Shown here piece by piece: positions 10,907 through 63,125 of a DNA stretch of 64,000 nt (its first letter is position 1; every line of letters starts with the position of its first letter). A program made the position numbers and the translations under genes. The notes under the pieces are model-generated. The model did not search any database and was not told where the DNA came from. It was given only the letters and a program-made list of their open reading frames with translations. Origin of the DNA: a virus; IMG/VR virus record IMGVR_UViG_3300026488_000026, positions 1-64,000 of that record. One strand, given 5' to 3'.

Positions 10907-10930
10907 AGCACACAAAATTATTTGTGTGCT
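10907..10930 (-). terminator. hairpin terminator after tail tube gene
   Basis: AGCACACAAA-atta-TTTGTGTGCT, 10-bp stem overlapping the stop codon. Confidence 0.7.
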
Positions 10931-14325: not shown

Positions 14326-14350
14326 AAAATCACTCATTAGGAGTGATTTT
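14326..14350 (-). terminator. terminator after major capsid gene
   Basis: AAAATCACTC-attag-GAGTGATTTT stem followed by T-rich sequence on the minus strand. Confidence 0.8.
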
Positions 14351-17927: not shown

Positions 17928-19283
17928 CTAAACTTTTAAATCAGGATCGCCTCCTAAAGGGTCTGTACTTCCTACACTACTTGGTTTATTATTTTGGCTT
18001 TCAGAATTATCAGTATTATTTTCTGAATTATTTTTACTCATAGCAACTAAATCTTGGAAGAATTGAGCTTCGCTACCTGTTAAGAAAGCAGGGACAATAT
18101 TTTTATCTGCACCATCAAAATCCATTTCTGGTAAATCAACTAAATTTCTTGCTTCATTTAATGTGGCAAGTCCTGTTGCAAACAATGTTCTCGCACTATC
18201 AGCTTTTACATCAAGAGCCGTATCAAGTTCTGTAATTCTTCCAAAATCAAATTCAAAATGATACTTACCATAACCAAATTGTTTTCCTAAAAACAAATTA
18301 ATTTGGTCTTGTATTCTATATAAATAAGGTCTTACAGCGGTATTAAATACAACTTTCATTAATTCTTGTGGTTTTCCAGCACTACTTGACTCACCTCCTA
18401 AAACAAGTGCATTTAATTTAAAAACTCTTAAAACTCTTTTTTCACTTATATTTATACTATCTAAAAGCATTGCATCTTTAGGGCTTGCTTGAACTGTCTT
18501 ATAATCCATTTTGGCTGGTAAAACAGCTATACCTCTTCTTTCACTACCACCTTTTCCATATAAAGCATTAAATTGTTCTCTTAATTCTTCTATTTGTTGA
18601 GGAGTTAGAGCGTATTCTGCTTTTAAAATACCAGCTAAAATTACACTTCCTTCATAAAATTCTTTTAAACTTTCAATGGCATCTTTTTCTAATGTTAAAG
18701 TATCAAGTAAAGGGGCTACACTTGGTAGCCCATAATAAGCATTATTTAAAGTTGGATTTACAATCCAAATAAGTTCATTTTCTTTATAAGCAATTTTATC
18801 ATTATAAATATAACCTTTAATAAATTTAGTCGCATCGGGCACTACTTTAACATTGTGAGGTTGAGTTAAAAACCAAGTTTCATAACTTCCTTTTACATTT
18901 TCAAAAGTTAAAGGAGCTACACCAGAGAGTAATAAACCTTGAATTGCAAGTTCAATTATTGTCCCCCAAGACCAAAACGGATTTGGTCTGTATTCCCATT
19001 CTCTTAATTTTTTGTCCTTAACAGGTAGTTTTTTACCAGATTTATCTAACTGATATAATCTTGGGACGGCTTGTCCTCCAGCTTTTGCTATATAATCAAC
19101 AGCACTAAAAACAAGCTCACTTGTATGAAAAGAATTTTCCATAGCACTTGTAGCTAAAATACCATTTCCATCTTTATAATCTTCAAAAATTTTTTTATTT
19201 GCTTTTGTAGCTTTGGTATTCATATATATTAATGTTTCTTTTTTTGTCTGAGGTTGTTTTTTAAAAAGATCAAAAAAACCCAT
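17928..19283 (-). CDS. portal protein (HK97 family)
   Basis: 'RPNPF', 'YYGLPSV', 'TLNEARNLVDLP' motifs; between terminase and protease. Confidence 0.92.
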   Translation of the reverse strand: MGFFDLFKKQPQTKKETLIYMNTKATKANKKIFEDYKDGNGILATSAMENSFHTSELVFSAVDYIAKAGGQAVPRLYQLDKSGKKLPVKDKKLREWEYRPNPFWSWGTIIELAIQGLLLSGVAPLTFENVKGSYETWFLTQPHNVKVVPDATKFIKGYIYNDKIAYKENELIWIVNPTLNNAYYGLPSVAPLLDTLTLEKDAIESLKEFYEGSVILAGILKAEYALTPQQIEELREQFNALYGKGGSERRGIAVLPAKMDYKTVQASPKDAMLLDSINISEKRVLRVFKLNALVLGGESSSAGKPQELMKVVFNTAVRPYLYRIQDQINLFLGKQFGYGKYHFEFDFGRITELDTALDVKADSARTLFATGLATLNEARNLVDLPEMDFDGADKNIVPAFLTGSEAQFFQDLVAMSKNNSENNTDNSESQNNKPSSVGSTDPLGGDPDLKV

Positions 19284-19315
19284 CTATTTTCCTTTTTAAT
19301 TATTATTACATAACA

Positions 19316-19323
19316 TATATCAG
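19316..19323 (-). promoter_or_regulatory. late promoter box CTGATATA
   Basis: 33 nt upstream of portal ATG. Confidence 0.75.
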
Positions 19324-19337
19324 TTTTAATAAAAACA

Positions 19338-19495
19338 TAAAAAATAAAGGAGAGAAAAATGAAACCTAATTTTAAGGGGAGGACATTCAATTGAGCTTTA
19401 TTTAAAAATAAAGCTCAATTGAACACCCACATCAGGTGTTCTAAATTTAACACCCACTTCAGGTGTTATAAATTGAACACCCACATCAGGTGTTC
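19338..19495 (-). ncRNA. candidate late small RNA: three 27-nt hairpin repeats, an 18-bp hairpin and an anti-RBS tail
   Basis: Orphan late promoter at 19502-19509; hairpins with compensatory closing pair; 19338-19364 complementary to RBS/ATG regions of replication-arm genes. Confidence 0.55.
19421..19495. repeat. three tandem 27-bp palindromic units
   Basis: Units start at 19421, 19448 and 19475: (G/T)AACACC-CAC(A/T)TCA-GGTGTT(C/A). Confidence 0.95.
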
Positions 19496-19501
19496 TACTA
19501 T

Positions 19502-19509
19502 TATATCGG
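19502..19509 (-). promoter_or_regulatory. orphan late promoter box CCGATATA
   Basis: No ORF follows; 7 nt upstream of the hairpin array. Confidence 0.7.
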
Positions 19510-19512
19510 AAA

Positions 19513-20562
19513 TTATACAACCCGTGTTGAAATGTAAATTCCTTTATAAGTTTTTTTACTCAAAGTTGGGTCGGTAGTAAACAAAGGAAAATGTCTAATG
19601 CTTACTGTTTCTTTAAAAAACTCACTAAAATAAACTTTACCATCAGAAGTTTCTTGTCTAAATCTAAATTTTAATTGATTTACTCTCCCCCATTGTGGGT
19701 TAGAGCCAGAAAAGTCAAGAGTTATTTTATTGTTAGTAAATTTATTTAATGGATAATAAGTGCTTCTTCTTGATCTTGACATATTTCCTGTGTTACCACT
19801 ATTGTTAAAATTAGTAACTTTATCATAACCCCACATTTCAAGAATTAAGTTTTCAGGAAAAGTTTGATTAAAGACAAAACCACCAATTGAAATGGTATTG
19901 AAAAATTTTTTATTTAATTGCATTGTTTCATTTCCATCAAATTGTTTATAAGTTACAGTCCAATCAGTAGGGTCGTCATTATTCATAACAGCATCTTCTA
20001 AATACATATATTGTTTTGTATTATCCCACATAGTAATCGGTATCATTGCATTTCTTGCTTTTACTCTTGTAGTACCCTCATACCTATCCAATCTTATATT
20101 ATACATTCCTCCAAATTTAATTGGCTCTTTATAAACAATTTTAATTGTTCCAGCTGGATTACCATTAGGAAAACTTAAATGTTGTGTATAACCAGCTGGA
20201 TTTATATATTGTTTTCCAAATTCCCAATCATCAAACAAAGTATCATTAATATATACTTTTACTAAATTTTTATTTGGAAAAATTAATTGTCTTAACCACA
20301 ATAGTTTTTGAGGCGAAATGTTATCCGTATGAGAATACATAATTATTTGATTTTCTCTAACATTACTACCTCCAAAAGGAACTAAATAGCCTTTTGAAAT
20401 TGCATCATCTACATTGCTTGTAGCTACCGAATTATTTGCTACAACATAATAATCGTAACTACCAGAATCTACAATAACCAATTGATTTAATTCATAATTC
20501 TGTAATATAATCACATCTGTTGGCTTTAATACAGGTATTTTATAATGAGTATAAACTTGCAT
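19513..20562 (-). CDS. putative virion accessory protein, paralogous to the C-terminal half of 20573..22441
   Basis: Shared blocks 'NKNLxKVxxN....DWxFG.Q' and 'VS.R.FP.FT.D'. Confidence 0.55.
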   Translation of the reverse strand: MQVYTHYKIPVLKPTDVIILQNYELNQLVIVDSGSYDYYVVANNSVATSNVDDAISKGYLVPFGGSNVRENQIIMYSHTDNISPQKLLWLRQLIFPNKNLVKVYINDTLFDDWEFGKQYINPAGYTQHLSFPNGNPAGTIKIVYKEPIKFGGMYNIRLDRYEGTTRVKARNAMIPITMWDNTKQYMYLEDAVMNNDDPTDWTVTYKQFDGNETMQLNKKFFNTISIGGFVFNQTFPENLILEMWGYDKVTNFNNSGNTGNMSRSRRSTYYPLNKFTNNKITLDFSGSNPQWGRVNQLKFRFRQETSDGKVYFSEFFKETVSIRHFPLFTTDPTLSKKTYKGIYISTRVV

Positions 20563-20572
20563 TTTTCCTCCT

Positions 20573-22441
20573 TTAAATAATTTTCATAAGTTTGTAATCA
20601 CCTACAAACTTATTTTCACTATCAGATGCATCTATTGTAAATACAGGAAAAGTCCTGACACTAACTACACTTGAAAGCCAACGACTAAACAAAACATTAC
20701 CACTTTCATCTGTTTTACCTAATCTAAAATGATAAATACCATTTTTATCAAGATTAGAAATTTTATTAATAGTAAATTTACCAATAGGTATTAATCTTCC
20801 TTGTGCCTCCATGTTATTTGGGATATGTTTTGTATTTGGGGATTTACTATCGCTTTTCCATACTTCTATCCAAAAACCATCTGGTAATGTTTCTTCTTTC
20901 GGAAATTCTGCTATATAAGCAAAATTAGGACTTGCTTTTTCTACTATAATTTTAATATCTGGGTTATCAATTCTAATATATTTACAAGAATAGCGTTTAT
21001 AACCTAATTCTTCCCCAAGTATGCTTACTTCTTTTAAATAAAATTTATTACCATGGCTATCTGTAATAAATTTAGTTATCATTTTTGGTCTTGAAGTTAT
21101 TTGTAAAGAGCCTTCTTTTCTATATAATACAAGTTTATAATCGCCCAAATTTATAGGCTCTAAATATTCAATTTTAATTTCATCATCGCTATTTAATGTA
21201 GTGTTGAATTTTAAATGAGTTGTATAATCAGGATTTAAACTTTGGACTTGATTGCCAAAATCCCAATCTTCATATTCTACTCCATTAACCCAAACTTTAA
21301 ATAAATTTTTGTTTTTAAAAACATAGCGTTTTAAAAACAACAAGTTTTTACCAGAAATATCTTTTCCTTTTCTATAAATAAAAACACGATTAGTTGTATC
21401 ACTACTATCGTTAAAGCTAAACAATTCTCCCGTGTTAATATCAATACCTATTACATAAGCATTTTCTGGTTTTGGTTTTGGGGTCTTTGCATAAGAATAA
21501 AAAATAGGATTTTTCATTTTAAAATCAAAAGCATCTTTTGTTACTGAGAAATAAGGTTTAATTGATGCAAAATCATTTCCTAAAGCAATATCATATTGTG
21601 CTTGGTCTCCATAAGCTCCAACTACTAATTGCTTATCACTAAGATTACCTCCTTTACCAGCCAAATAAGCTTGATAAAAACTTGTTGGATACATTGTTAA
21701 AAAAACTTGGTCTTTATAAGGGTCAGCAGAGGTAGAAGCCGTAAATCCAGCCCCAGCATAATTATCAGAATTATTTTCATTTGTTACATTTATTTCAACA
21801 ATACCATAAACATTTCTTTTTATAGCAATGCGTTGGACATCATCCGCCGTTTGATTGTTAGGTTGTAATTGTTTTCCAATTCCTGTATCTGATTCAGTTT
21901 TTTCCCAATAAGTTTTTTTATCAATAATATCACAGATATCTTTTGGCGTGTATCTTCTAACTTCATCAACAGCACAAGGATTTTGTTTTTCAACTTCAGT
22001 TATTTTATGAATTTGAACGCCAAGATAAAACCATTTTGGATTACCATCCTCGTCTTTCCTTGCTTCATACAAACCAGCTTTCTTTCTATTAAATAAAGTC
22101 CAAGTTCCTGTTGCTTTTTGAACTAACCATTGCTCCCCTAAATGGTCGGCTGGGTCAGGTAAATCAGCAAAAGTTTCAACTTCGCCTTCCCAACCATCAA
22201 AACTTGAACTACCTCCTCCTAAACTAACTTCAACCCAACTTATCAAATCATCTTGTAATTGCCAAAATTTTCCATCTTCTTGACAATAAACTACCATTCC
22301 TGATTTTCTTCTTAAATCAGGAATGTTATCTCTCTCTTCAATAGTAGCTACAACACGAAAACCACCTTCTAAATGAGTATCTTCAACTAAAGGATATTCT
22401 CCTCCACCTGTATCAAATTTTCCTGTTATTTTAATCCCCAT
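20573..22441 (-). CDS. putative virion fibre/decoration protein
   Basis: N-terminal 'GGFRVVATIEERDNIP..RRKSGMVVY' and 'VETFADLP' modules typical of phage fibre proteins. Confidence 0.55.
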   Translation of the reverse strand: MGIKITGKFDTGGGEYPLVEDTHLEGGFRVVATIEERDNIPDLRRKSGMVVYCQEDGKFWQLQDDLISWVEVSLGGGSSSFDGWEGEVETFADLPDPADHLGEQWLVQKATGTWTLFNRKKAGLYEARKDEDGNPKWFYLGVQIHKITEVEKQNPCAVDEVRRYTPKDICDIIDKKTYWEKTESDTGIGKQLQPNNQTADDVQRIAIKRNVYGIVEINVTNENNSDNYAGAGFTASTSADPYKDQVFLTMYPTSFYQAYLAGKGGNLSDKQLVVGAYGDQAQYDIALGNDFASIKPYFSVTKDAFDFKMKNPIFYSYAKTPKPKPENAYVIGIDINTGELFSFNDSSDTTNRVFIYRKGKDISGKNLLFLKRYVFKNKNLFKVWVNGVEYEDWDFGNQVQSLNPDYTTHLKFNTTLNSDDEIKIEYLEPINLGDYKLVLYRKEGSLQITSRPKMITKFITDSHGNKFYLKEVSILGEELGYKRYSCKYIRIDNPDIKIIVEKASPNFAYIAEFPKEETLPDGFWIEVWKSDSKSPNTKHIPNNMEAQGRLIPIGKFTINKISNLDKNGIYHFRLGKTDESGNVLFSRWLSSVVSVRTFPVFTIDASDSENKFVGDYKLMKII

Positions 22442-22452
22442 TTAAAAACTCC

Positions 22453-23268
22453 TTAACTGATAGTGCTATCTAACGGACTACCTTGTTGATAAGTAGTTCG
22501 TAATGCTTTATATTCAATTGTAACACCATAATCATTTGTTATATTTATATTATCTAAATAAGTAAAATCCACGGCAAAACCCGATTCATTGTCACGCCAA
22601 TCATTAATATTTCCCCATTCAGCTGGATAAAAAACAAAATAATATCTCAATTCACCATGATTATCAAAATTATATTTTCCTGAATACCCACTTTTTAAAG
22701 CACTATTCTCAAGTGCTTTAATTTCTTCCGCAGTTAAAGTTTCTTTTACCGAAGTTCCCCAATAAACTCTTGCTCTCCAATAAACACGAAAATCTCTACT
22801 AAATGTTTGTTCTTTTGTATTAACACCACTAATTCTCCAAGTATAATAACTATTAATTTCGCTTGAAGTTTTATCCTCCCCTATATCTAAATTTTCCTGA
22901 CCATCATTTGCTAAATTACTACCTAAAATTGTATTAGCGTTTATATCTTTAATGCTAATAGAGTTTTCTTTTATATTTTCTGAATGACTTGTACTCCATT
23001 TAAAAGTTCTAATCCCACCGCTTATTGCTTGTCCTACTTCTAATTGCGTTGATTGTCCTTCAATATAAAAACTTGTAAAAGAAGGATATTGATAAGGAAA
23101 CAAAATCATTTTTAAAACTTCACAAGGTTGCATTCCATTAATATCTGTACCAGCTTCTAATCCACCATGTTTTTCTGGTACAACTTCTTCAGTTTGCATA
23201 ACACAACCACCAGACCCTCCACCAACTCCTATATCAGGGTAAATCACAGAAAATTTATTATTTGGCAT
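22453..23268 (-). CDS. putative virion protein
   Basis: 'GGLEAGT...LFPYQYPSF' motif seen in structural proteins; late promoter upstream. Confidence 0.5.
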   Translation of the reverse strand: MPNNKFSVIYPDIGVGGGSGGCVMQTEEVVPEKHGGLEAGTDINGMQPCEVLKMILFPYQYPSFTSFYIEGQSTQLEVGQAISGGIRTFKWSTSHSENIKENSISIKDINANTILGSNLANDGQENLDIGEDKTSSEINSYYTWRISGVNTKEQTFSRDFRVYWRARVYWGTSVKETLTAEEIKALENSALKSGYSGKYNFDNHGELRYYFVFYPAEWGNINDWRDNESGFAVDFTYLDNINITNDYGVTIEYKALRTTYQQGSPLDSTIS

Positions 23269-23333: not shown

Positions 23334-24692
23334 TTATACAACTTGAATTTGTAAATTTTGTAATTTCCACCAACCACTTGTTAAATAACGCAAAGCACCA
23401 ACAGCTAAGTCAAAATGCCCATCTTTGTTTCTTTCTATTGTTTTTCCATTTGAATTTTCTTTCCAATGAGCCAACTTTAATTCTTCTATTAATTGCATAC
23501 AATTTTCAGATATAAATAATTTTCCTTTTTGAAATGCTGTGTTAATGTCCCTAATGCTTTCTACTAATTGAATTGGTGCGGGTTGTGTATAGTAGTTATA
23601 GCTATATGCCATATCAGCCATTGTCAAACTTGCACTTGGGTCACAAAACCTTACAACTTGCATATCAGGATTTTCCGCATATCTTTGTTCTATTTCTCTG
23701 AATTGTTTAACATGCCATTCAATAGGCATTTGCCCAGCTTTATATTCGTCCAAAACATAAATATTGCCCGTCATAGGCTCTACCCAAGCTATAACAAAAC
23801 TTGTATTATCTCTATAACCTATATCAATTCCTACTACAAATGTATCTTTTGTTGTCATTTTGTTTTTCAAATCATTAATTCTAAATACATTTTTTTCTAA
23901 ATCAAAAGCATAAAATACTTGTAAATCCTCGCTAAACCCACTTTGAAACTCACATAAATATTCTTGTTCAAAACTTCTTTTATCAAGTTTAGCTTTAATT
24001 GCCTCAATCATTTCTCTTGTTATCATAGGATTATCATAAATAGTTACCTTTTTACAAAAATAATCATCGCGTTCAGCACATCTTTTCCATAATTTATAAA
24101 AATCATTATCAAAAGTTCTTGGCGTTCCTATAAAAAAAGTTTTAGAATACATAAAACCATTTTCATCAGTTCCATAATCATTTTGTGCTGGAGAAATATA
24201 AGTTTCCCAAATTTCAAGAACATTATTAATACTCGCGGTTTCATCAAAAATAACCAAACTAAATTTATCTCCAAGTGCATTTTCATAATTTTTTTCAGTA
24301 ACGACACGAAACTTTGCACCATTTTCTAATGTAAATGTTAAACCTTTCATATCTTTTGATTTAAAAGGCAATTGTAATTTGTTTACATCTTTTTCAACAT
24401 TACTAAAAATAGCTTGTGCATTTGCAAAAGTAGGCGTTACTAATAATATACTTGAATTTGGAACTAAAAGTTCAGCGGAGGCAATTTTTGACATAACTGT
24501 TGATTTACCAGCTCTTCTTGACATTAAAAAAACACCAACATTAAAATCCCCTTTTTGTATTCTATCAATTATTTCTTGTTGATATTTTGTAGGAGTAAAT
24601 TCAAAAAGTTTCATTACCTTATTATAATCTATCTTCTTTTTAACTTTTTTATAAAGCTCTATTTCTTGATTTATAGGTTTAAATTCAGACAT
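23334..24692 (-). CDS. terL: terminase large subunit
   Basis: Q motif (YQQ), Walker A 'SRRAGKS', Walker B 'VIFDE', 'GTP' coupling motif, RNase H-like 'GIDIG' and 'HFD'. Confidence 0.96.
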   Translation of the reverse strand: MSEFKPINQEIELYKKVKKKIDYNKVMKLFEFTPTKYQQEIIDRIQKGDFNVGVFLMSRRAGKSTVMSKIASAELLVPNSSILLVTPTFANAQAIFSNVEKDVNKLQLPFKSKDMKGLTFTLENGAKFRVVTEKNYENALGDKFSLVIFDETASINNVLEIWETYISPAQNDYGTDENGFMYSKTFFIGTPRTFDNDFYKLWKRCAERDDYFCKKVTIYDNPMITREMIEAIKAKLDKRSFEQEYLCEFQSGFSEDLQVFYAFDLEKNVFRINDLKNKMTTKDTFVVGIDIGYRDNTSFVIAWVEPMTGNIYVLDEYKAGQMPIEWHVKQFREIEQRYAENPDMQVVRFCDPSASLTMADMAYSYNYYTQPAPIQLVESIRDINTAFQKGKLFISENCMQLIEELKLAHWKENSNGKTIERNKDGHFDLAVGALRYLTSGWWKLQNLQIQVV

Positions 24693-35367: not shown

Positions 35368-35817
35368 ATGAATGAAATTAATTTGTCAGCTTATTTAAAA
35401 CAAATGCTTGAGCCACAAGTTGTAATTGAAATTTGTAATTATGAATTTGGCAAAGATTTTAAAGAAAAATTTGAAAAAGAAGAGCTTTTAAGTTATCTTA
35501 TTAATAGGTTATTAAAAAATAATGATTTGGCATCAAATATGTATGATTTTGTTGAAGTTGTTGGTTTTATCGTCCAACAAGAATTTAAGAATTATGGGCG
35601 AGTTTATATAGATGTTGATGAACTTGATAATGTTTTTTATGTTTTAGTTGGTAGAATGTTAGAAAATGGTATTCCTAAAAACTTAATTAAACAATTTTTA
35701 GTTGATTGTTTTAAATCATTTTATGGTTTGCTTGATAAAAAAATTTCTGATTTAATTTGGGAATATCAAAATAAAAAAGAAAAATTACCAAATCAGCTTT
35801 CAGGATTTGACAAATGA
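35368..35817 (+). CDS. hypothetical protein
   Basis: AAGGAG RBS, promoter upstream. Confidence 0.65.
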   Translation: MNEINLSAYLKQMLEPQVVIEICNYEFGKDFKEKFEKEELLSYLINRLLKNNDLASNMYDFVEVVGFIVQQEFKNYGRVYIDVDELDNVFYVLVGRMLENGIPKNLIKQFLVDCFKSFYGLLDKKISDLIWEYQNKKEKLPNQLSGFDK

Positions 35818-36119
35818 TTGAACGCAAATTAAGTTGTTATCAGGTCCAAAAGGTTATGGACCTTTTTTATTTAAAAAAAGCAACTATTTCAAAAATAGCC
35901 CAATATTTTAAAGTTGGTTATAAGACAATTCAATATATAGTCCAAGGCAAAACTTATCGTGATTGTTGGCGTTATGATAGATATGGTTGGGAAAATGAAA
36001 ATGATTTCAAACTTGCTTATGAACATAGGAAAAGAGAGAACATTAAAAATTATGGAAATGGTAGAAAATCTCCAAAAATAGAATTCCTATTAGAACAAAT
36101 AAAAAAAGGAAAAGTTTGA
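35814..36119 (+). CDS. HTH DNA-binding protein
   Basis: 'TISKIAQYFKVGYKTIQYIVQGKTY'. Confidence 0.6.
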   Translation: MIERKLSCYQVQKVMDLFYLKKATISKIAQYFKVGYKTIQYIVQGKTYRDCWRYDRYGWENENDFKLAYEHRKRENIKNYGNGRKSPKIEFLLEQIKKGKV

Positions 36120-40816: not shown

Positions 40817-40900
40817 TTACTATTACCGCTTTTTTAATAAATTTTGAAAATTTAATTTTATTACTATTACCGATTTTTTAGTAGATTTTAAAAGTTTTAA
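40817..40900. repeat. two imperfect 44-bp direct repeats
   Basis: TTACTATTACCG(C/A)TTTTTTA at 40817 and 40861. Confidence 0.75.
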
Positions 40901-40995
40901 ATAGGAGGCACAAAAGGCAAAAAGCTCGAAATTTCGGAGGCACAAATGAAATGCTATAAATAAGGAGACACAATTTCTTTTTTGGCTTTTTGCCT
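40900..40995 (-). ncRNA. candidate anti-RBS small RNA
   Basis: Orphan promoter at 41001-41030; 14-bp inverted repeat 40912-40925/40985-40998; three segments complementary to RBS regions at 40563-40579 and 39223-39233. Confidence 0.6.
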
Positions 40996-41000
40996 TTTAA

Positions 41001-41030
41001 ATTATAAAAAATTTTATAATTACTTGTCAA
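41001..41030 (-). promoter_or_regulatory. orphan sigma70-type promoter
   Basis: TTGACA-N18-TATAAT; no ORF for 430 nt downstream. Confidence 0.8.
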
Positions 41031-44451: not shown

Positions 44452-44700
44452 TTATTCTCCTTCTGTTGTTGATACTAAAGGTTTAACTTTATTTATTATA
44501 ATCCACCAAAATTTTTTCCATAAAGGTAATTTAATGATATACCAATTTTTGTCATCCATTGAATACTCTCTAATTCTATTTTTATTTGTAGTCCATTGAA
44601 CTCCCATTAATTTAAAAATAATAGGTTTTGTTTTACCTCTTGGGTTTCTAAAAGCATAACCTTTTTCTAAAAGGTATTTTTGTGCTTTTCTTATTGTCAT
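44452..44700 (-). CDS. hypothetical basic protein
   Basis: Promoter-RBS cassette upstream. Confidence 0.65.
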   Translation of the reverse strand: MTIRKAQKYLLEKGYAFRNPRGKTKPIIFKLMGVQWTTNKNRIREYSMDDKNWYIIKLPLWKKFWWIIINKVKPLVSTTEGE

Positions 44701-44731
44701 TTTTCTCTCCTTTATTTTTTATTGCGTAAAA

Positions 44732-44760
44732 ATTATAAAAAATTTTTTATAAAAAGTCAA
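44732..44760 (-). promoter_or_regulatory. sigma70-type promoter with palindromic spacer
   Basis: TTGACT-N17-TATAAT over TTATAAAAAATTTTTTATAA. Confidence 0.85.
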
Positions 44761-48819: not shown

Positions 48820-49086
48820 TTATGCTTTTAAATCTAATTTTAAATCAAAGTCTATTAATTCTAAATCTCTTTCTAATAATCTTCCTTTTAACCTTTTATT
48901 TTCTATTTTTTCTTGATTATAAAGTTTTTTATAATAGTTAATTTTATTTTCAAGTTCATTAATATATTCTTGTAATAAGCGTAAATGATAAAATTTAATA
49001 GATAACTTATCATTATCAGTAATTTCAAGTTTCCATCTTTTAATTGCTTCAATAGTAGGTTGAACGATTTGTTTTTTATTTTTCAT
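48820..49086 (-). CDS. hypothetical coiled-coil protein
   Basis: AAGGAGAG RBS. Confidence 0.6.
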   Translation of the reverse strand: MKNKKQIVQPTIEAIKRWKLEITDNDKLSIKFYHLRLLQEYINELENKINYYKKLYNQEKIENKRLKGRLLERDLELIDFDLKLDLKA

Positions 49087-49354
49087 TTTTCTCTCCTTTA
49101 TTTTTTAATATATTAAAGGCTATCATAAACGCTTTTTTAAAAGCGTTATCATCTATGTTTAAGAAAAACTTTTCATCTACCATAAAACTATCTTTTCCGT
49201 TATTATAAACAACTTCTAATTGTCCATCACTACTCTTTAACCATTCTTTAAAAGCGTCCCAAAATAGAACGCCTGAAATAGCGTCAAGTGCTGTTTCTTT
49301 ATCATATGCTTTTTCTATTACAAAAACCTTTTTATTTTTCCGTTTATTTTTCAT
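49076..49354 (-). CDS. hypothetical protein
   Basis: Promoter-RBS cassette upstream. Confidence 0.65.
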   Translation of the reverse strand: MKNKRKNKKVFVIEKAYDKETALDAISGVLFWDAFKEWLKSSDGQLEVVYNNGKDSFMVDEKFFLNIDDNAFKKAFMIAFNILKNKGEKNEK

Positions 49355-49384
49355 TTTTCTCTCCTTTATTTTTATTGCATTAAA

Positions 49385-49413
49385 ATTATAAAAAATTTTT
49401 TATAGTTTGTCAA
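49385..49413 (-). promoter_or_regulatory. sigma70-type promoter with palindromic spacer
   Basis: TTGACA-N17-TATAAT over TATAAAAAATTTTTTATA. Confidence 0.88.
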
Positions 49414-55072: not shown

Positions 55073-55351
55073 TTAAACCATTTCAAAAAATTTACTTAAT
55101 TTATCATATAAAAAAGCTCCTATTCTATAATTACCATTTCCTAAATTTTCAATATACTTTTCAAATTTTTTTAAAACATACAAAATTCTTTGCTTACTAT
55201 CTCCTGTTTCACTTGCAATTTCTTTTAAAGAAAATTTCCCTTTTTCCCTTTGAATTTTAGCTCCTAATAATAAATACAATAAACCTCTAACAGAAATAGA
55301 ATTTAATTCATTTTTTGAAATTTCATTTAATCTTTTTAATAACAATTTCAT
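55073..55351 (-). CDS. winged-HTH protein
   Basis: 'FSLKEIASETGDSKQRILYVLKK'. Confidence 0.6.
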   Translation of the reverse strand: MKLLLKRLNEISKNELNSISVRGLLYLLLGAKIQREKGKFSLKEIASETGDSKQRILYVLKKFEKYIENLGNGNYRIGAFLYDKLSKFFEMV

Positions 55352-55390
55352 TTTTCTCTCCTTATAAAATTTTTTGAATTATAATATATT

Positions 55391-57214: not shown

Positions 57215-57452
57215 TTGCTTTTCCTTTCAAGAATTTTAATAATTCTTTTTCAAGTTTTTCTTTTGTTGGTTTTTTTCTTATTTTTTTAACCATTTTACTA
57301 CTTGTATGGTATCTTAAAATAGTTTCTTTAGGGATTTTAAATTCTTTAACTAAACCTTCAGGTATTATTAAATCATAATAGTAGATTTTTTTCTCTTCTG
57401 GTACATACAAAATTGTTCCTTTAAAGTTTTTATAAGTAATTTCAACTATCAT
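57204..57452 (-). CDS. hypothetical protein
   Basis: AAGGAG RBS. Confidence 0.6.
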   Translation of the reverse strand: MIVEITYKNFKGTILYVPEEKKIYYYDLIIPEGLVKEFKIPKETILRYHTSSKMVKKIRKKPTKEKLEKELLKFLKGKANGK

Positions 57453-61210: not shown

Positions 61211-62557
61211 TTAATTAAATTTTAATGGTAGTCTAAATTGATATCCTTTTGGTAATAAACTATCATCTCTTACAAATTTTACATTTTTACCTCCTATACC
61301 ATAGAGTCTATATTTTTCAACTTCTGTTTCAAAATAATGATTTTTTACAAAGTCAAAGTGTTCTACAAATTCATTATCAATATTACTTATTGCAACTTCA
61401 TAAAAATTCTTATAACACATAGGGCATAATTGTTTTTTAAATTTAGAAAAATAATTACCACAACAAACACATTTTCTAAACATTCCTACTTGCAAATCCA
61501 CTATTTGTCTATAAATTTCTTCTTTATTAAAATAATAAATATTTTCTTGAACATATAAATTTTCCAAACCAAATGTTACAATTTCATCAGTTATTTTATA
61601 CTTAATTTTTTTACCATTTTCTAATATAAAACCAATAGGTAACAAATTTTCATCAAACCAATAATCTAAAACTTTAATAAAACTTTTTCTTGTTTTTAAT
61701 TTTAAAATTTTAATGCCTTGTTTATCTATTATTAAATGTTTTTTAATTAAATTTTTACCTAAACTTTTTAAATCATAGAAAGTATTAATTTCTTTTATAT
61801 TAGGATATTTAATTTTTATGTTATTGTATTTTTTAAAACGAAAATTTTTAATTTTTTTGCCTTCGTTAATCATAAATAAAGGAACTAAAATGTCTTTTTC
61901 ATAAATAAAATAAAAGGACATGTTATTTTTAAACTTAAAAATTTCTTTTAAAAAACTAATTATTTTTTTACTTTTTAAATCAGAATCAATTAAATTTCCT
62001 TTTTTAACAAAACTAAAAATTTTATATTCACTTACACCTTTAGGTAAAATATAAAAATCTAAAGGATAATTTAATTTATCGCCAACGCCTCTAAGCAATT
62101 TAATTTTATAATCTTTTAAATCCAAATTTTCAATTTTTAATAAAGCATATAACTCTTCTTTTGTATATAACTTTTTTAAAACACTTAAAATAAAATCTTC
62201 ACCTACATTTAAAAATTTACCACTTAAAAACAATTTAATTATCCAAACTATCTTTTTATTAATACTTTTAGTATATTCTTTTAAAGCCGTTAAATCTCCT
62301 TGCTCTATATAAAAAAGAATTAAACCTAATGCTGAAATTAAATCTCCACCTTCTATCAAATCACCTTCTCTTATAAAACTTAAAAAATTTTTATTTTTTG
62401 GAGTTAAAGAATAATATGCCGAAATTAATAATTCAAATTCTTTTCTAAACTTATTATAAGCAACTAAAAAAGCATTTTGTCTATTATAGTAGCCTTTTTC
62501 AAAATAAAAATCATTTACTAAATTAAAAAGAATTGTAATATTTTTTGATTTCATCAC
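61211..62557 (-). CDS. hypothetical protein, possibly inactive ligase paralog with C-terminal Zn finger
   Basis: Weak colinear resemblance to 41362..42714; CVCC...CPMC. Confidence 0.4.
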   Translation of the reverse strand: MMKSKNITILFNLVNDFYFEKGYYNRQNAFLVAYNKFRKEFELLISAYYSLTPKNKNFLSFIREGDLIEGGDLISALGLILFYIEQGDLTALKEYTKSINKKIVWIIKLFLSGKFLNVGEDFILSVLKKLYTKEELYALLKIENLDLKDYKIKLLRGVGDKLNYPLDFYILPKGVSEYKIFSFVKKGNLIDSDLKSKKIISFLKEIFKFKNNMSFYFIYEKDILVPLFMINEGKKIKNFRFKKYNNIKIKYPNIKEINTFYDLKSLGKNLIKKHLIIDKQGIKILKLKTRKSFIKVLDYWFDENLLPIGFILENGKKIKYKITDEIVTFGLENLYVQENIYYFNKEEIYRQIVDLQVGMFRKCVCCGNYFSKFKKQLCPMCYKNFYEVAISNIDNEFVEHFDFVKNHYFETEVEKYRLYGIGGKNVKFVRDDSLLPKGYQFRLPLKFN

Positions 62558-63125
62558 TATCTATCCTTTCTACTTTACCATATTGAATAAAATCTCTAAT
62601 AAAAATAATACTTTTTACTATAATAAATTTAAGACTACTCAAAGATATGTTATTTACTTTAGCCGTTTTTATTAAACCATAACCTTTTATAAAATAATCA
62701 TGCAAAAGTTTTAATTCAAAATCAGTAAAATAATTTTTTAATAATTCTCTTATATTTTCTTGTAATAAATATCTCTCAACATCTTCCATATAATTTTCAT
62801 TTATATGAAATTCCTCATAATTTTCAGGGGGAGCAGTAAGCCAACTTTCTTTATCTTTTAAACTTTTTTTAATTGCACCATATTTATTTAAACTATTTTT
62901 AGCAACCCAATCTAACATTCTTCCATAAATTTTTTTATAAGCAAATCCCATAAAATAATCGTTTTTATCACTATCATATTTTTCTTTTGCTAAAAGATAA
63001 CCTAAAACCCCTTCTTGAATTAAATCCTCTAAATCAATTCCTGCAAAACTTCTCTCGTATATTTTATAAGCTAAACCTTCAATGTGTTTATAATCTTTTT
63101 CTGGTATATTATACTTATTTGACAT
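62523..63125 (-). CDS. phage RNA polymerase sigma factor (FliA/sigma28-like region 2)
   Basis: 'DLEDLIQEGVLG..AKEKYD...F..FAYKKIYGRMLDW' plus a degenerate region 4. Confidence 0.88.
   Translation of the reverse strand: MSNKYNIPEKDYKHIEGLAYKIYERSFAGIDLEDLIQEGVLGYLLAKEKYDSDKNDYFMGFAYKKIYGRMLDWVAKNSLNKYGAIKKSLKDKESWLTAPPENYEEFHINENYMEDVERYLLQENIRELLKNYFTDFELKLLHDYFIKGYGLIKTAKVNNISLSSLKFIIVKSIIFIRDFIQYGKVERIDSDEIKKYYNSF

What the first reader, a model, noticed from the sequence alone, without database searches (positions are those of the whole stretch)
19338..19509. Late-promoter RNA upstream of the portal gene: three co-varying hairpins, a long hairpin and a 27-nt anti-RBS tail
Seen: CCGATATA at 19502-19509 puts a likely start at ~19495, the first base of hairpin 1. 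Three 27-nt units each form a 7-bp stem with loop UGA(U/A)GUG. The closing pair is G-C in two units and U-A in the other, a compensatory change. An 18-bp perfect inverted repeat follows (19386-19423) without a U-tract. Then 19338-19364 is complementary to start regions at 49081-49107 (27/27), 44697-44722 (26/26 with 19337-19362), 49349-49373 (25/25) and 55346-55363 (18/18). The portal gene has its own late box (19316), so this promoter is not needed for it. Inference: a late sRNA with protein-binding hairpins plus an antisense domain. Alternatives for the hairpins are a protein sponge, an antitoxin or crRNA mimic, or a packaging-related RNA. Caveat: the target sequence is low-complexity.
Basis: partly seen in the sequence, partly recalled or inferred. 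Interest (0 to 1): 0.82.

Follow-up and report, generated by a model that had tools for sequence, protein, structure and literature searches.

The report
Late phage RNA with anti-ribosome-site tail
An uncultured hydrothermal-vent phage and its two close relatives keep, behind a late promoter just before the portal gene, a strongly folded non-coding RNA element (three near-identical hairpins plus one long hairpin). It is followed by a stretch that mirrors the ribosome-binding leader of the phage's own early genes, so it may switch those genes off late in infection, but no transcript has been seen.

Summary
A CCGATATA box (19502-19509, minus strand) is one of about 13 conserved sigma-28-like late boxes. 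It is the only intergenic one with no gene behind it.

Six bases downstream lie three 27-nt hairpin units, then a 16-17-bp hairpin. After a variable spacer comes a 27-nt stretch whose RNA is perfectly complementary to the 5'UTR, Shine-Dalgarno and AUG of four early genes (27, 26, 25 and 24 nt).

Only two relatives exist in the collections searched, and both keep the element. All 63 hairpin pairs are intact, with double (compensatory) changes at two stem positions. G.U pairs occur only on the gene-sense strand. The hairpin segment is better conserved than the neighbouring gene.

Each genome's tail best matches its own early leaders and matches the portal's ribosome site poorly.

Best reading (about 0.4): a late riboregulator or leader RNA that silences early-cassette genes in trans. 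The role of the hairpin array is unknown.

Rivals:
- a cis insulator for portal;
- an antitoxin- or CRISPR-repeat-like decoy, with the tail being a scar of an inverted early cassette;
- a 3'-end stabiliser.

Expression is untested, and no RNA run is listed. Earlier notes of this scan describe the same kind of candidate on other phage DNA.

The parts
19502..19509 (-). Orphan class-A late promoter box CCGATATA (sigma-28-like -10). It starts 3 nt after the stop codon of the 349-aa ORF and ends 6 nt before hairpin 1.
   Evidence: 6 copies, all on the sense strand. Conserved at the same place in G001 and G002, with the same 6-nt distance to hairpin 1.
19475..19495 (-). Hairpin 1: GAACACC-UGAUGUG-GGUGUUC. 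Predicted transcript start at about 19495.
19448..19468 (-). Hairpin 2: UAACACC-UGAAGUG-GGUGUUA. The closing pair is U-A here and in G001, and A-U in G002.
19421..19441 (-). Hairpin 3, identical to hairpin 1. In G001 and G002 stem position 5 is G-C instead of A-U.
19386..19423 (-). Long hairpin (16-17 bp, 4-nt loop) with an invariant CAAUUGA base and a co-varying middle. No U-tract follows.
19363..19387 (-). Variable, G-poor spacer: 25, 30 and 22 nt in the three genomes, 47-57% identical.
19337..19363 (-). Anti-TIR core: the complement of the early 5'UTR, SD and AUG. It is part of the pyrimidine-rich tail 19324-19362.
19359..19394 (+). Plus-strand 11-codon mini-ORF behind the mirrored RBS. It is not conserved (MKPNFKGRTFN, MNRLIEL, MKKKKERKLN), and no conserved plus-strand promoter was found.
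19315..19323 (-). Class-B late box CTGATATAT, the portal gene's own promoter, downstream of the tail.
17928..19283 (-). Portal gene (PF04860). Its weak SD is AAAGGAA.
19513..20562 (-). 349-aa ORF of unknown function, the last of three ORFs inserted between TerL and portal in this subclade only.
49081..49107 (-). Best predicted target: the translation-initiation region (TIR) of an 88-aa early gene. 27/27 complementary, -34.3 kcal/mol. Its orthologue is also the top target in G001.
44697..44722 (-). Predicted target: TIR of an 82-aa gene behind the early cassette at 44760 (26/26).
49349..49373 (-). Predicted target: TIR of a 92-aa gene behind the early cassette at 49413 (25/25).
55346..55363 (-). 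Weaker predicted target: TIR of a 92-aa gene (18-nt match, -24.8 kcal/mol).
62523..63125 (-). Phage sigma factor (Sigma70_r2; best NCBIfam hits are FliA/WhiG). It is the presumed reader of the late boxes.

Best explanation
The interval between the 349-aa ORF and the portal gene encodes a late, untranslated, structured RNA. It would be made from a strong sigma-28-like promoter read by the phage's own sigma factor.

The first 110 nt fold into three near-identical stem-loops and one long stem-loop. These would act as a stabilising and probably protein-recognised 5' domain.

The RNA would then continue into an unstructured, G-poor, pyrimidine-rich segment. Its core (CAU plus an anti-Shine-Dalgarno and U-rich run) pairs with nearly the whole 5'UTR, the SD and the start codon of the first genes behind the phage's sigma-70 early-promoter cassettes.

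Late in infection this pairing would block ribosome binding on those early mRNAs, and could expose them to double-strand RNases. That would be an RNA counterpart of the early-gene shut-off that T4 achieves with the RegA and RegB proteins.

**Shown:** the sequence features, their conservation, the covariation of the stems, the strand bias, the complementarity and its class preference.

**Inferred:** transcription, the extent of the transcript, trans action, and any role of the hairpins.
For: **Promoter**
- C[CT]GATATA boxes sit 34-43 nt upstream of orthologous late genes in three genomes (52 nt at one G000 gene). This copy is conserved with a fixed 6-nt distance to hairpin 1.
- The phage sigma has Sigma70_r2, and its best hits are FliA models.
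- More distant relatives carry (A/C)CGATA-type boxes before portal.

**RNA structure**
- Nine hairpins show 63 of 63 standard pairs, with both-side changes at two columns. 0 of 500 shuffles reach the observed covariation score.
- The long hairpin has 49 of 50 pairs, 3 double changes and 3 columns with G.U pairs. Those pairs would be A.C on the other strand.
- The invariant loop U1 and G7 add a wobble pair on the sense strand only.
- The box plus hairpin segment is 86-90% identical between genomes, against 68-82% for the adjacent ORF DNA and 47-57% for the spacer.

**Tail**
- Perfect complementarity of 27, 26, 25 and 24 nt, with 0 expected by chance.
- The top partners score -32 to -37 kcal/mol against a median of -13. 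They are 5'-proximal genes of early cassettes, and the top partners are orthologous in G000 and G001.
- Each tail's longest perfect matches are in its own genome: 27/26/25/24, 22/21/18 and 17/16/16.
- The portal's ribosome site is a poor partner, ranking 79/102, 67/115 and 35/101.
- Late-gene sites pair less well than the others (Mann-Whitney p = 0.008), and 0 of 34 late genes have AAGGAGAG.
- The tail is predicted to be unpaired, with pairing probability 0.08-0.30.

**Precedent**
- sRNAs that are sigma-28-dependent or that carry an anti-SD act within the flagellar hierarchy (PMC11187230). The phage c4 RNA blocks an RBS in trans (PMC12197685).
Against: - No transcript data exist. No listed sequencing run is RNA.
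- No terminator follows the tail, and a long unprotected 3' tail is atypical for an sRNA. The long hairpin could itself end the RNA, which would exclude the tail.
- Only three closely related genomes carry the element (portal 89-95% identical), so the covariation rests on few independent events. Short DNA palindromes can also be kept perfect by template switching.
- The tail is A/T-rich and looks like a consensus RBS. In G001 both leader variants coexist, so the 'co-variation' is soft.
- G002 carries plus-strand early-cassette mini-genes inside the late module. The mirrored RBS could therefore be a scar of such an insertion, kept similar by recombination.
- The predicted target proteins have no known function.
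Confidence: 0.4

Rival explanations
1. A cis-acting leader or insulator for the portal gene. The strong class-A promoter would make a structured leader. The long hairpin, and perhaps Rho acting on the G-poor, C-richer tail, would stop or attenuate that transcription. On any read-through RNA the pyrimidine tract would pair with the portal's Shine-Dalgarno sequence. Portal, needed in few copies, would then be translated only from its own weaker class-B promoter, which lies between the two pairing partners.
For: Folding pairs the portal SD with an upstream U/C tract in all three genomes (pairing probability about 0.8-1.0). The class-B box lies in the loop between the partners. The class-A boxes precede the prohead-protease and major-capsid genes and two further large late genes, and portal has a class-B box. 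The spacer and tail are G-poor and unstructured.
Against: The tail matches the portal's ribosome site poorly (ranks 79/102, 67/115 and 35/101) and matches early leaders perfectly. In G001 the predicted partner of the portal SD is a different U/C tract. A/U-rich sequences pair promiscuously. This model gives no reason for three hairpins with conserved loops or for conserving CAU at the right spacing.
Confidence: 0.2
2. The functional unit is only the RNA of about 110 nt: three tandem hairpin repeats plus a palindrome. It would act as a decoy for a host RNA-binding defence protein. [quoted passage not shown] On this view the mirrored RBS downstream is a scar of an inverted early-promoter cassette and has no RNA function.
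For: The order promoter, tandem repeats, palindrome matches the type III antitoxin layout (PMC5086642). Phage TE carries and expands such repeats without a toxin gene (PMC3475682). Phage Racrs are solitary repeat-like RNAs (PMC10651486). The hairpin segment is the most conserved part, and loop positions U1, G2, U6 and G7 are invariant. G002 shows that early cassettes with tiny basic ORFs do land inside the late module. The element arrived with a 3-ORF insertion that more distant relatives lack.
Against: The units are 27 nt, against the 36-nt unit of ToxI (PMC3475682). They are simple hairpins, whereas ToxI is pseudoknotted in its complex. A scan of 185,579 species genomes for the hairpin gave only scattered hits in unrelated, mostly high-GC genomes, with no array and no AT-rich host. 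There is no ToxN in the phage (though the control was silent). There is no Rfam hit. A late promoter is an odd choice for counter-defence. The 17-nt core of the tail is identical in G000 and G001 although the adjacent spacer is unalignable, which argues for selection rather than a decaying scar.
Confidence: 0.2
3. A cluster that forms or stabilises the 3' ends of the upstream late operon (TerL and the 271-, 622- and 349-aa ORFs). The hairpins would block 3' exonucleases or be processed by RNase III. The CCGATATA box would simply restart transcription for portal and the head genes.
For: The hairpins start 20 nt after the stop codon of the last inserted ORF. The long perfect duplex could be an RNase III substrate (inference). 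The cluster sits at the end of an inserted module.
Against: The phage's clear terminators are 10-bp stems followed by a U-tract (14326-14350 and 10907-10930), and none is scored here. The box lies upstream of the hairpins at a fixed 6-nt distance, so they are at the 5' end of its transcript. Conserved loop bases are not needed for an exonuclease block.
Confidence: 0.1
4. DNA-level sites: three palindromic operators for a dimeric protein (a regulator, or small terminase at a pac site), or hairpins that form in single-stranded DNA at an origin.
For: Three evenly spaced perfect palindromes lie near the packaging genes. All three assemblies close on a 127-bp end overlap, which is compatible with a circular or permuted genome and so with headful packaging.
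Against: Both-side changes keep pairing intact while different variants coexist in one genome, which is not what half-site recognition predicts. G.U pairs are tolerated on one strand only. The site is 4 kb from TerL and outside the replication genes. It lies immediately downstream of a promoter.
Confidence: 0.06

Closest known systems
c4 antisense RNA of phages P1/P7; also P22 sar and lambda OOP
   Same: These are phage-encoded non-coding RNAs whose exposed segments pair with the ribosome-binding region of the phage's own mRNA and block translation (PMC12197685).
   Different: There is no sequence or Rfam relationship. c4, sar and OOP serve immunity or lysogeny decisions and act on one transcript. 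This element sits behind a late lytic promoter, would target a whole class of early leaders (4-8 genes), and carries a triple-hairpin domain. The complementary stretch is a linear tail, not a loop.
T4 RegA (translational repressor) and RegB (endoribonuclease cutting GGAG in early Shine-Dalgarno sequences)
   Same: The proposed outcome is the same: post-transcriptional shut-off of many early mRNAs at their ribosome sites as infection proceeds. This rests on my own knowledge; the review PMC3014915 was listed but not read.
   Different: Those are proteins made early. Here the agent would be an RNA made late, and its specificity would come from 17-27 nt of base pairing.
Sigma-28 / flagellar-hierarchy sRNAs (C. 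jejuni CJnc170/FlmR and CJnc230/FlmE; E. coli sigma-28-dependent UTR-derived sRNAs)
   Same: CJnc170 is a FliA (sigma-28)-dependent sRNA suggested to control several RpoN-dependent (earlier-class) genes. [quoted passage not shown]
   Different: Those are host chromosomal, with no sequence likeness, short seeds and defined 3' ends. This element is viral, has a 27-nt match, and has no evident 3' end.
Type III antitoxin arrays (ToxI, etc.) and phage pseudo-ToxI
   Same: One promoter, a tandem array of short repeats, then a palindromic hairpin. Phage TE carries such repeats without the toxin gene (PMC5086642; PMC3475682).
   Different: The units are 27 nt and are plain hairpins. The palindrome has no U-tract. 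No ToxN-family gene lies downstream or anywhere in the phage. No host array with this repeat was found.
RNA anti-CRISPRs (Racr) / solitary repeat units
   Same: Non-coding, repeat-like hairpin RNAs in phage intergenic DNA (PMC10651486).
   Different: No CRISPR repeat resembling the unit was found in the species-representative genome collection. The units are separated by only 6 nt, so there are no spacers.

Membership tests
Trans-acting anti-RBS riboregulator of a phage (c4-like in function) | A segment complementary to the SD and start region of the phage's own mRNAs | tested here: met
   Perfect matches of 27, 26, 25 and 24 nt. Duplexes of -32 to -37 kcal/mol against a median of -13.
Trans-acting anti-RBS riboregulator of a phage (c4-like in function) | The complementary segment is accessible (unpaired) in the RNA | tested here: met
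   Predicted pairing probability of 0.08-0.30 in the three genomes. This is a prediction only.
Trans-acting anti-RBS riboregulator of a phage (c4-like in function) | The RNA is transcribed and includes the segment | not testable with these tools
   No RNA run is listed. No terminator is predicted before or after the tail.
Trans-acting anti-RBS riboregulator of a phage (c4-like in function) | Regulator and targets change together across relatives | tested here: inconclusive
   Perfect matches within a genome exceed cross-genome ones. There are only 3 genomes, and G001 holds both leader variants.
c4 antisense RNA family (Rfam) | A match to the covariance model | tested here: not met
   No Rfam family reaches its threshold. 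Only sub-threshold miRNA-like noise appears on the long hairpin.
Sigma-28 (FliA)-type promoter | A -10 element of the CCGATAT type, recurring upstream of a gene class | tested here: met
   C[CT]GATATA lies 34-43 nt before orthologous late ATGs in 3 genomes (52 nt at one G000 gene). The consensus GCCGATAA/GCCGATAT is from my own knowledge.
Sigma-28 (FliA)-type promoter | A cognate FliA-family sigma factor is present | tested here: inconclusive
   ORF 62523-63125 has Sigma70_r2 (E = 1e-7). Its best NCBIfam hits are FliA (7e-13) and FliA_WhiG (9e-12), both below the curated cut-offs.
Type III toxin-antitoxin antitoxin array / pseudo-ToxI | A tandem array of short direct repeats behind one promoter | tested here: met
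   Three 27-nt units behind the box. The unit is shorter than ToxI's 36 nt.
Type III toxin-antitoxin antitoxin array / pseudo-ToxI | A Rho-independent terminator after the array | tested here: not met
   A long palindrome is present, but no U-tract terminator is scored.
Type III toxin-antitoxin antitoxin array / pseudo-ToxI | A ToxN-family toxin downstream, or a host array with like repeats | tested here: inconclusive
   The downstream gene is portal. PF13958 was not found in the phage, but the control genomes were silent too. There is no array in the species genomes, and the host is unknown.
RNA anti-CRISPR (Racr) | Likeness to a CRISPR repeat of the host | tested here: inconclusive
   The genome-contig scan gave only scattered hits in unrelated, mostly high-GC genomes. 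The host is unknown and the pattern was strict.
Lambda-type nut site (boxA + boxB) or HK022 put antitermination RNA | A GNRA-like pentaloop with A at loop position 5, and a conserved boxA | tested here: not met
   Loop position 5 is an invariant U: the nine pentaloops are GAUGU, GAAGU, GAGAU, GGGGU and GAAAU. A GCUCUUU string occurs in G002 only. The boxA and boxB definitions are from my own knowledge.
Intrinsic terminator | A G+C-rich stem followed by a U-tract | tested here: not met
   0 sites in 18800-20000. The phage's real terminator-like hairpins look different.

The most novel reading that the evidence does not exclude
A two-domain late phage RNA that performs the early-to-late switch at the level of translation. 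Its linear anti-leader tail would silence the whole class of sigma-70 early-cassette genes. Its triple-hairpin head would titrate a host or phage RNA-binding protein, for example a defence nuclease. This would be an RNA-only counterpart of T4 RegA and RegB. Similar notes on other genomes in this scan hint that such elements may be widespread in uncultured phages.
Probability: 0.15. Interest if true: 0.8.

Novelty: new variant of a known kind. Interest (0 to 1): 0.58.

Why it matters
Temporal gene control in lytic phages is understood mostly through transcription and a few proteins (T4 RegA and RegB). A late RNA that masks a leader shared by early genes would add a simple, evolvable RNA layer to the early-to-late switch.

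It would also explain why early genes in this phage share an identical leader that late genes avoid.

The triple hairpin, with invariant loop bases and compensatory stem changes, matches no Rfam family. It is a clean candidate for a specific RNA-protein interaction.

The element is small, sharply bounded and testable with reporter fusions, even though the host is unknown.

Tried and rejected
**Searches that found nothing useful**
- Rfam at E <= 10: only sub-threshold miRNA-like hits on the palindrome.
- DNA search of 50,697 phage records: no match. The closest cultured phages have portals no more than 26% identical.
- Public runs: one DNA holder (a hydrothermal-vent metagenome, probably the source) and one small-share run. 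No RNA holder is listed. Read laying was not used, because contigs cannot show RNA ends.
The 50-73% portal relatives found could therefore not be fetched.

**Searches for further copies of the element**
- Hairpin pattern in viral contigs: only the two relatives, plus single chance hairpins.
- Metagenome contigs: the same two relatives, plus two GC-rich chance hits.
- Genome contigs: 95 unrelated hits. They include a repeat in one Omnitrophota MAG that only shares the 21-mer.
- Covariance model R1: no further copy in the three genomes or in the 23 more distant loci searched (L232-L254).

**Readings considered and set aside**
- Plus-strand coding. The 27-nt period is a multiple of 3, and in G000 the mini-ORF is in frame with a 52-aa TTG ORF across one TGA. 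Rejected: the frame is closed in G001 and G002, the substitutions are compensatory rather than codon-wise, and TGA ends the upstream ORF in G001.
- A plus-strand sigma-70-like site at 19032-19059. It is not conserved.
- A TnpB- or Cas-like partner. Pfam, PHROGs, NCBIfam, PADLOC, PDB sequence search and the protein atlas gave nothing for the three inserted ORFs.
- A CsrA sponge. The loops contain no GGA (read from the sequence).
Full report
**Setting.** The window is the first 64 kb of a 78,936-bp IMG/VR virus record with 25.4% G+C. Its 127-bp 'terminal repeat' recurs with exactly that length in both relatives. I take this to be an assembly overlap of a circular or permuted genome (inference). 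The only run that holds the DNA is a hydrothermal-vent metagenome.

Around the finding all genes are on the minus strand:
- TerL, 23334-24692;
- three ORFs with no family match, of 271, 622 and 349 aa;
- the 229-bp interval 19284-19512;
- portal, 17928-19283;
- prohead protease;
- major capsid protein.

**Observation.**
- The hairpin pattern occurs exactly three times, against 0.04 expected.
- The 27-mer of the tail has four near-perfect copies in the window and a fifth at 72202-72225, against none in shuffles.
- The palindrome 19386-19423 is the longest perfect hairpin in the genome. It folds at -19.7 kcal/mol with z = -8.2.
- Each small hairpin gains an eighth U.G pair on the minus-strand RNA and closes a pentaloop.

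**Is the box a promoter?**
- CCGATATA occurs six times, always on the gene-sense strand. The looser C[CT]GATATA precedes TerL, the 271-aa ORF, portal, protease, capsid and the tail genes at 34-43 nt from the ATG (52 nt at one G000 gene). The same boxes sit before the same orthologues in both relatives.
- Two flavours exist. CCGATATA stands before the protease and capsid genes and two further large late genes of unassigned function. CTGATATAT stands before portal, TerL and others.
- The phage encodes a sigma factor at 62523-63125. It matches Sigma70_r2, and its best NCBIfam matches are FliA models, though below their cut-offs. From my own knowledge, sigma-28 -10 elements read GCCGATAA or GCCGATAT, which fits.
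- Portal relatives at 41-58% identity carry (A/C)CGATA-type boxes before portal.

The copy at 19509 starts 3 nt after the upstream stop codon and ends 6 nt before hairpin 1 in all three genomes. No gene follows it. I accept it as a probable strong late promoter. This is still inference from pattern.

**Relatives.** Only two genomes carry the element: G001 (83.9 kb) and G002 (80.6 kb), with portals 95% and 89% identical.
- Pattern scans of the viral, metagenome and species-genome collections found no other copy. Nor did a covariance model built here.
- In 21 more distant relatives, either TerL is followed directly by portal or the interval before portal holds unrelated sequence. None has the hairpin array.
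- The three unknown ORFs and the element therefore look like one insertion specific to this subclade.

**Is it an RNA structure, and on which strand?**
- Across the nine hairpins all 63 pairs are standard. The closing pair is G-C six times, U-A twice and A-U once. Stem position 5 is A-U six times and G-C three times. There are no half-changed intermediates, and 0 of 500 shuffles reach the covariation score.
- Variants coexist within one genome. That argues against recognition of half-sites by a dimeric protein.
- The long hairpin keeps 49 of 50 pairs, with three both-side changes and three columns with G.U pairs. All of these are G.U on the gene-sense strand and would be A.C on the other.
- The invariant loop ends U1 and G7 also pair on the sense strand only.
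- The 88-nt box-plus-hairpins segment has constant length and is 86-90% identical. The adjacent ORF DNA is 68-82% identical and the spacer 47-57%.

Caveats: there are only three close genomes, so few independent events. Short palindromes can also be repaired to perfection by template switching. Even so, a selected sense-strand RNA structure is the best reading (about 0.8).

**The tail.** The sequence mirrored at 19337-19363 is not just a generic RBS.
- It is the 3' end of a repeated early cassette: TTGACw-N17-TATAAT followed by a leader of about 25 nt ending in AAUAAAGGAGAGAAAAAUG. The complementarity covers almost the whole predicted 5'UTR of those mRNAs.
- I called genes crudely and computed duplexes against every translation-initiation region (TIR). 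The top partners stand apart at -32 to -37 kcal/mol, against a median of -13. All are small genes of 82-115 aa.
- The two best are orthologous between G000 and G001.
- Late-gene TIRs pair less well (p = 0.008). None of 34 late genes uses AAGGAGAG, and half use AAGGA.
- The portal's own TIR ranks 79th of 102, 67th of 115 and 35th of 101. The tail is therefore not tuned to portal.
- Each tail has its longest perfect matches in its own genome. The T/C and G/A differences between tails mirror differences between the genomes' early leaders.
- The 17-nt core UCAUUUUUCUCUCCUUU is identical in G000 and G001, although the preceding spacer is unalignable.
- The tail is predicted to be unpaired.

**What weakens the antisense reading.**
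- There is no RNA evidence at all.
- No terminator follows the tail. A stand-alone sRNA with a naked 3' tail of 60 nt or more would be unusual. The RNA may instead be the 5' part of a longer late transcript, or end by Rho action on this G-poor stretch (inference).
- If it ends at the long hairpin, the tail is not in it.
- G002 shows that early cassettes driving tiny basic ORFs do sit on the plus strand inside the late module. The mirrored RBS with its unconserved 7-11-codon ORF could be the scar of such an insertion, kept like the other cassettes by recombination.
- I found no conserved plus-strand promoter, so a functional plus-strand mini-gene is unlikely. A scar cannot be excluded.

**The cis alternative.** Folding pairs the portal SD with an upstream U/C tract in all three genomes, and the portal's own promoter lies between the partners. 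This is an attractive way to keep portal output low despite a strong upstream promoter. However, the partner differs in G001, and the tail fits the early leaders far better than it fits portal.

**The hairpin array.** Its function is open.
- The layout of promoter, tandem repeats and palindrome recalls type III antitoxin loci and phage TE's pseudo-ToxI (PMC5086642, PMC3475682).
- Repeat-like hairpins also recall RNA anti-CRISPRs (PMC10651486).
- Neither is supported. The units are 27 nt and are plain hairpins, no toxin gene is present, and no host array or CRISPR repeat with this sequence turned up. The host is unknown, so these tests are weak.
- It is not a lambda boxB: loop position 5 is an invariant U.
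- It is not a terminator.

**Verdict.** I commit to a late, sigma-28-like-promoter-driven structured RNA whose unpaired tail silences the early-cassette genes by masking their leaders (0.4). The rivals are listed above.

The closest known systems are, in function, phage c4/sar/OOP antisense RNAs and T4 RegA/RegB, and, in logic, sigma-28-dependent flagellar sRNAs (PMC12197685, PMC11187230). It is a new variant of a known kind.

Earlier notes of this scan describe similar anti-RBS RNA candidates in other phage genomes. I used them as leads only.

Noticed in passing
window 40896-41030 (minus strand); G001 about 65500-65583: A perfect sigma-70 early promoter (TTGACA-N17-TATAAT at 41030) fires into ORF-less sequence that holds a small GGC-AAAAA-GCC hairpin and a GUCUCCUU anti-SD-like motif. 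G001 keeps it with GCCUCCUU. It is possibly a second anti-RBS RNA, and it is already the subject of another first-stage note.
   Followed up: partly
whole genomes G000, G001, G002: All three records end in a direct repeat of exactly 127 bp. I read this as an assembly overlap, so the genomes are probably complete circles, although CheckV rates them 42-44% complete.
   Followed up: partly
window 3154, 12285, 15598, 17927, 19509 versus 9114, 14169, 19323, 23305, 24734, 31324: There are two flavours of late box. CCGATATA stands before the protease and capsid genes, two further large late genes of unknown function, and the orphan site. (A)CTGATATA(T) stands before portal, TerL, the 1970-aa ORF and others. 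This could reflect promoter strength or two timing classes.
   Followed up: partly
window 19513-23268: Three late ORFs (271, 622 and 349 aa) between TerL and portal have no match in Pfam, NCBIfam or PADLOC (one weak PHROG of unknown function). They are absent from relatives with 41-58% portal identity, where TerL abuts portal or the interval holds unrelated sequence. This looks like an inserted accessory module.
   Followed up: partly
G002 35681-35906 (L127 15681-15906): Two early promoters lie back to back and form a 15-bp palindrome. One drives a 41-aa lysine-rich ORF that converges on the portal gene's 3' end. Its transcript would run antisense into portal.
   Followed up: partly
window 14326-14350 and 10907-10930: Conserved 10-bp hairpins followed by U-rich sequence on the sense strand. 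One lies just after the capsid gene and one after the 441-aa gene, and both are probably the phage's real intrinsic terminators. The 10907 hairpin (AGCACACAAA...) is conserved in all three genomes.
   Followed up: no
window 76513 (outside the 64-kb window: genome coordinate); G001 15449; G002 11808: A second CCGATATA box with no SD-ATG at the usual distance, conserved in all three genomes. It is apparently inside or just before a gene in the tail-fibre region.
   Followed up: no
L243-L245, L247 (distant relatives), about 100-250 nt upstream of portal: A different conserved repeat (…ATAGGTCTTGGGACAC…) occurs once, twice or as an inverted pair before the portal promoter of more distant relatives. 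It may be a binding site for a late regulator.
   Followed up: no
G002 57272-57352: A perfect 21-bp hairpin lies next to a 14-bp hairpin, between the two best predicted tail targets of G002. Its loop, UGGAGUG, fits the UGRRRUG loop pattern of the triple hairpins.
   Followed up: no
L147, L148, L156, L170, L190 (one Omnitrophota MAG): The 21-mer GAACRCCTGGYGTGGGTGTTC recurs on five contigs of one MAG within a longer GC-rich dispersed repeat. It is unrelated to the phage element.
   Followed up: no
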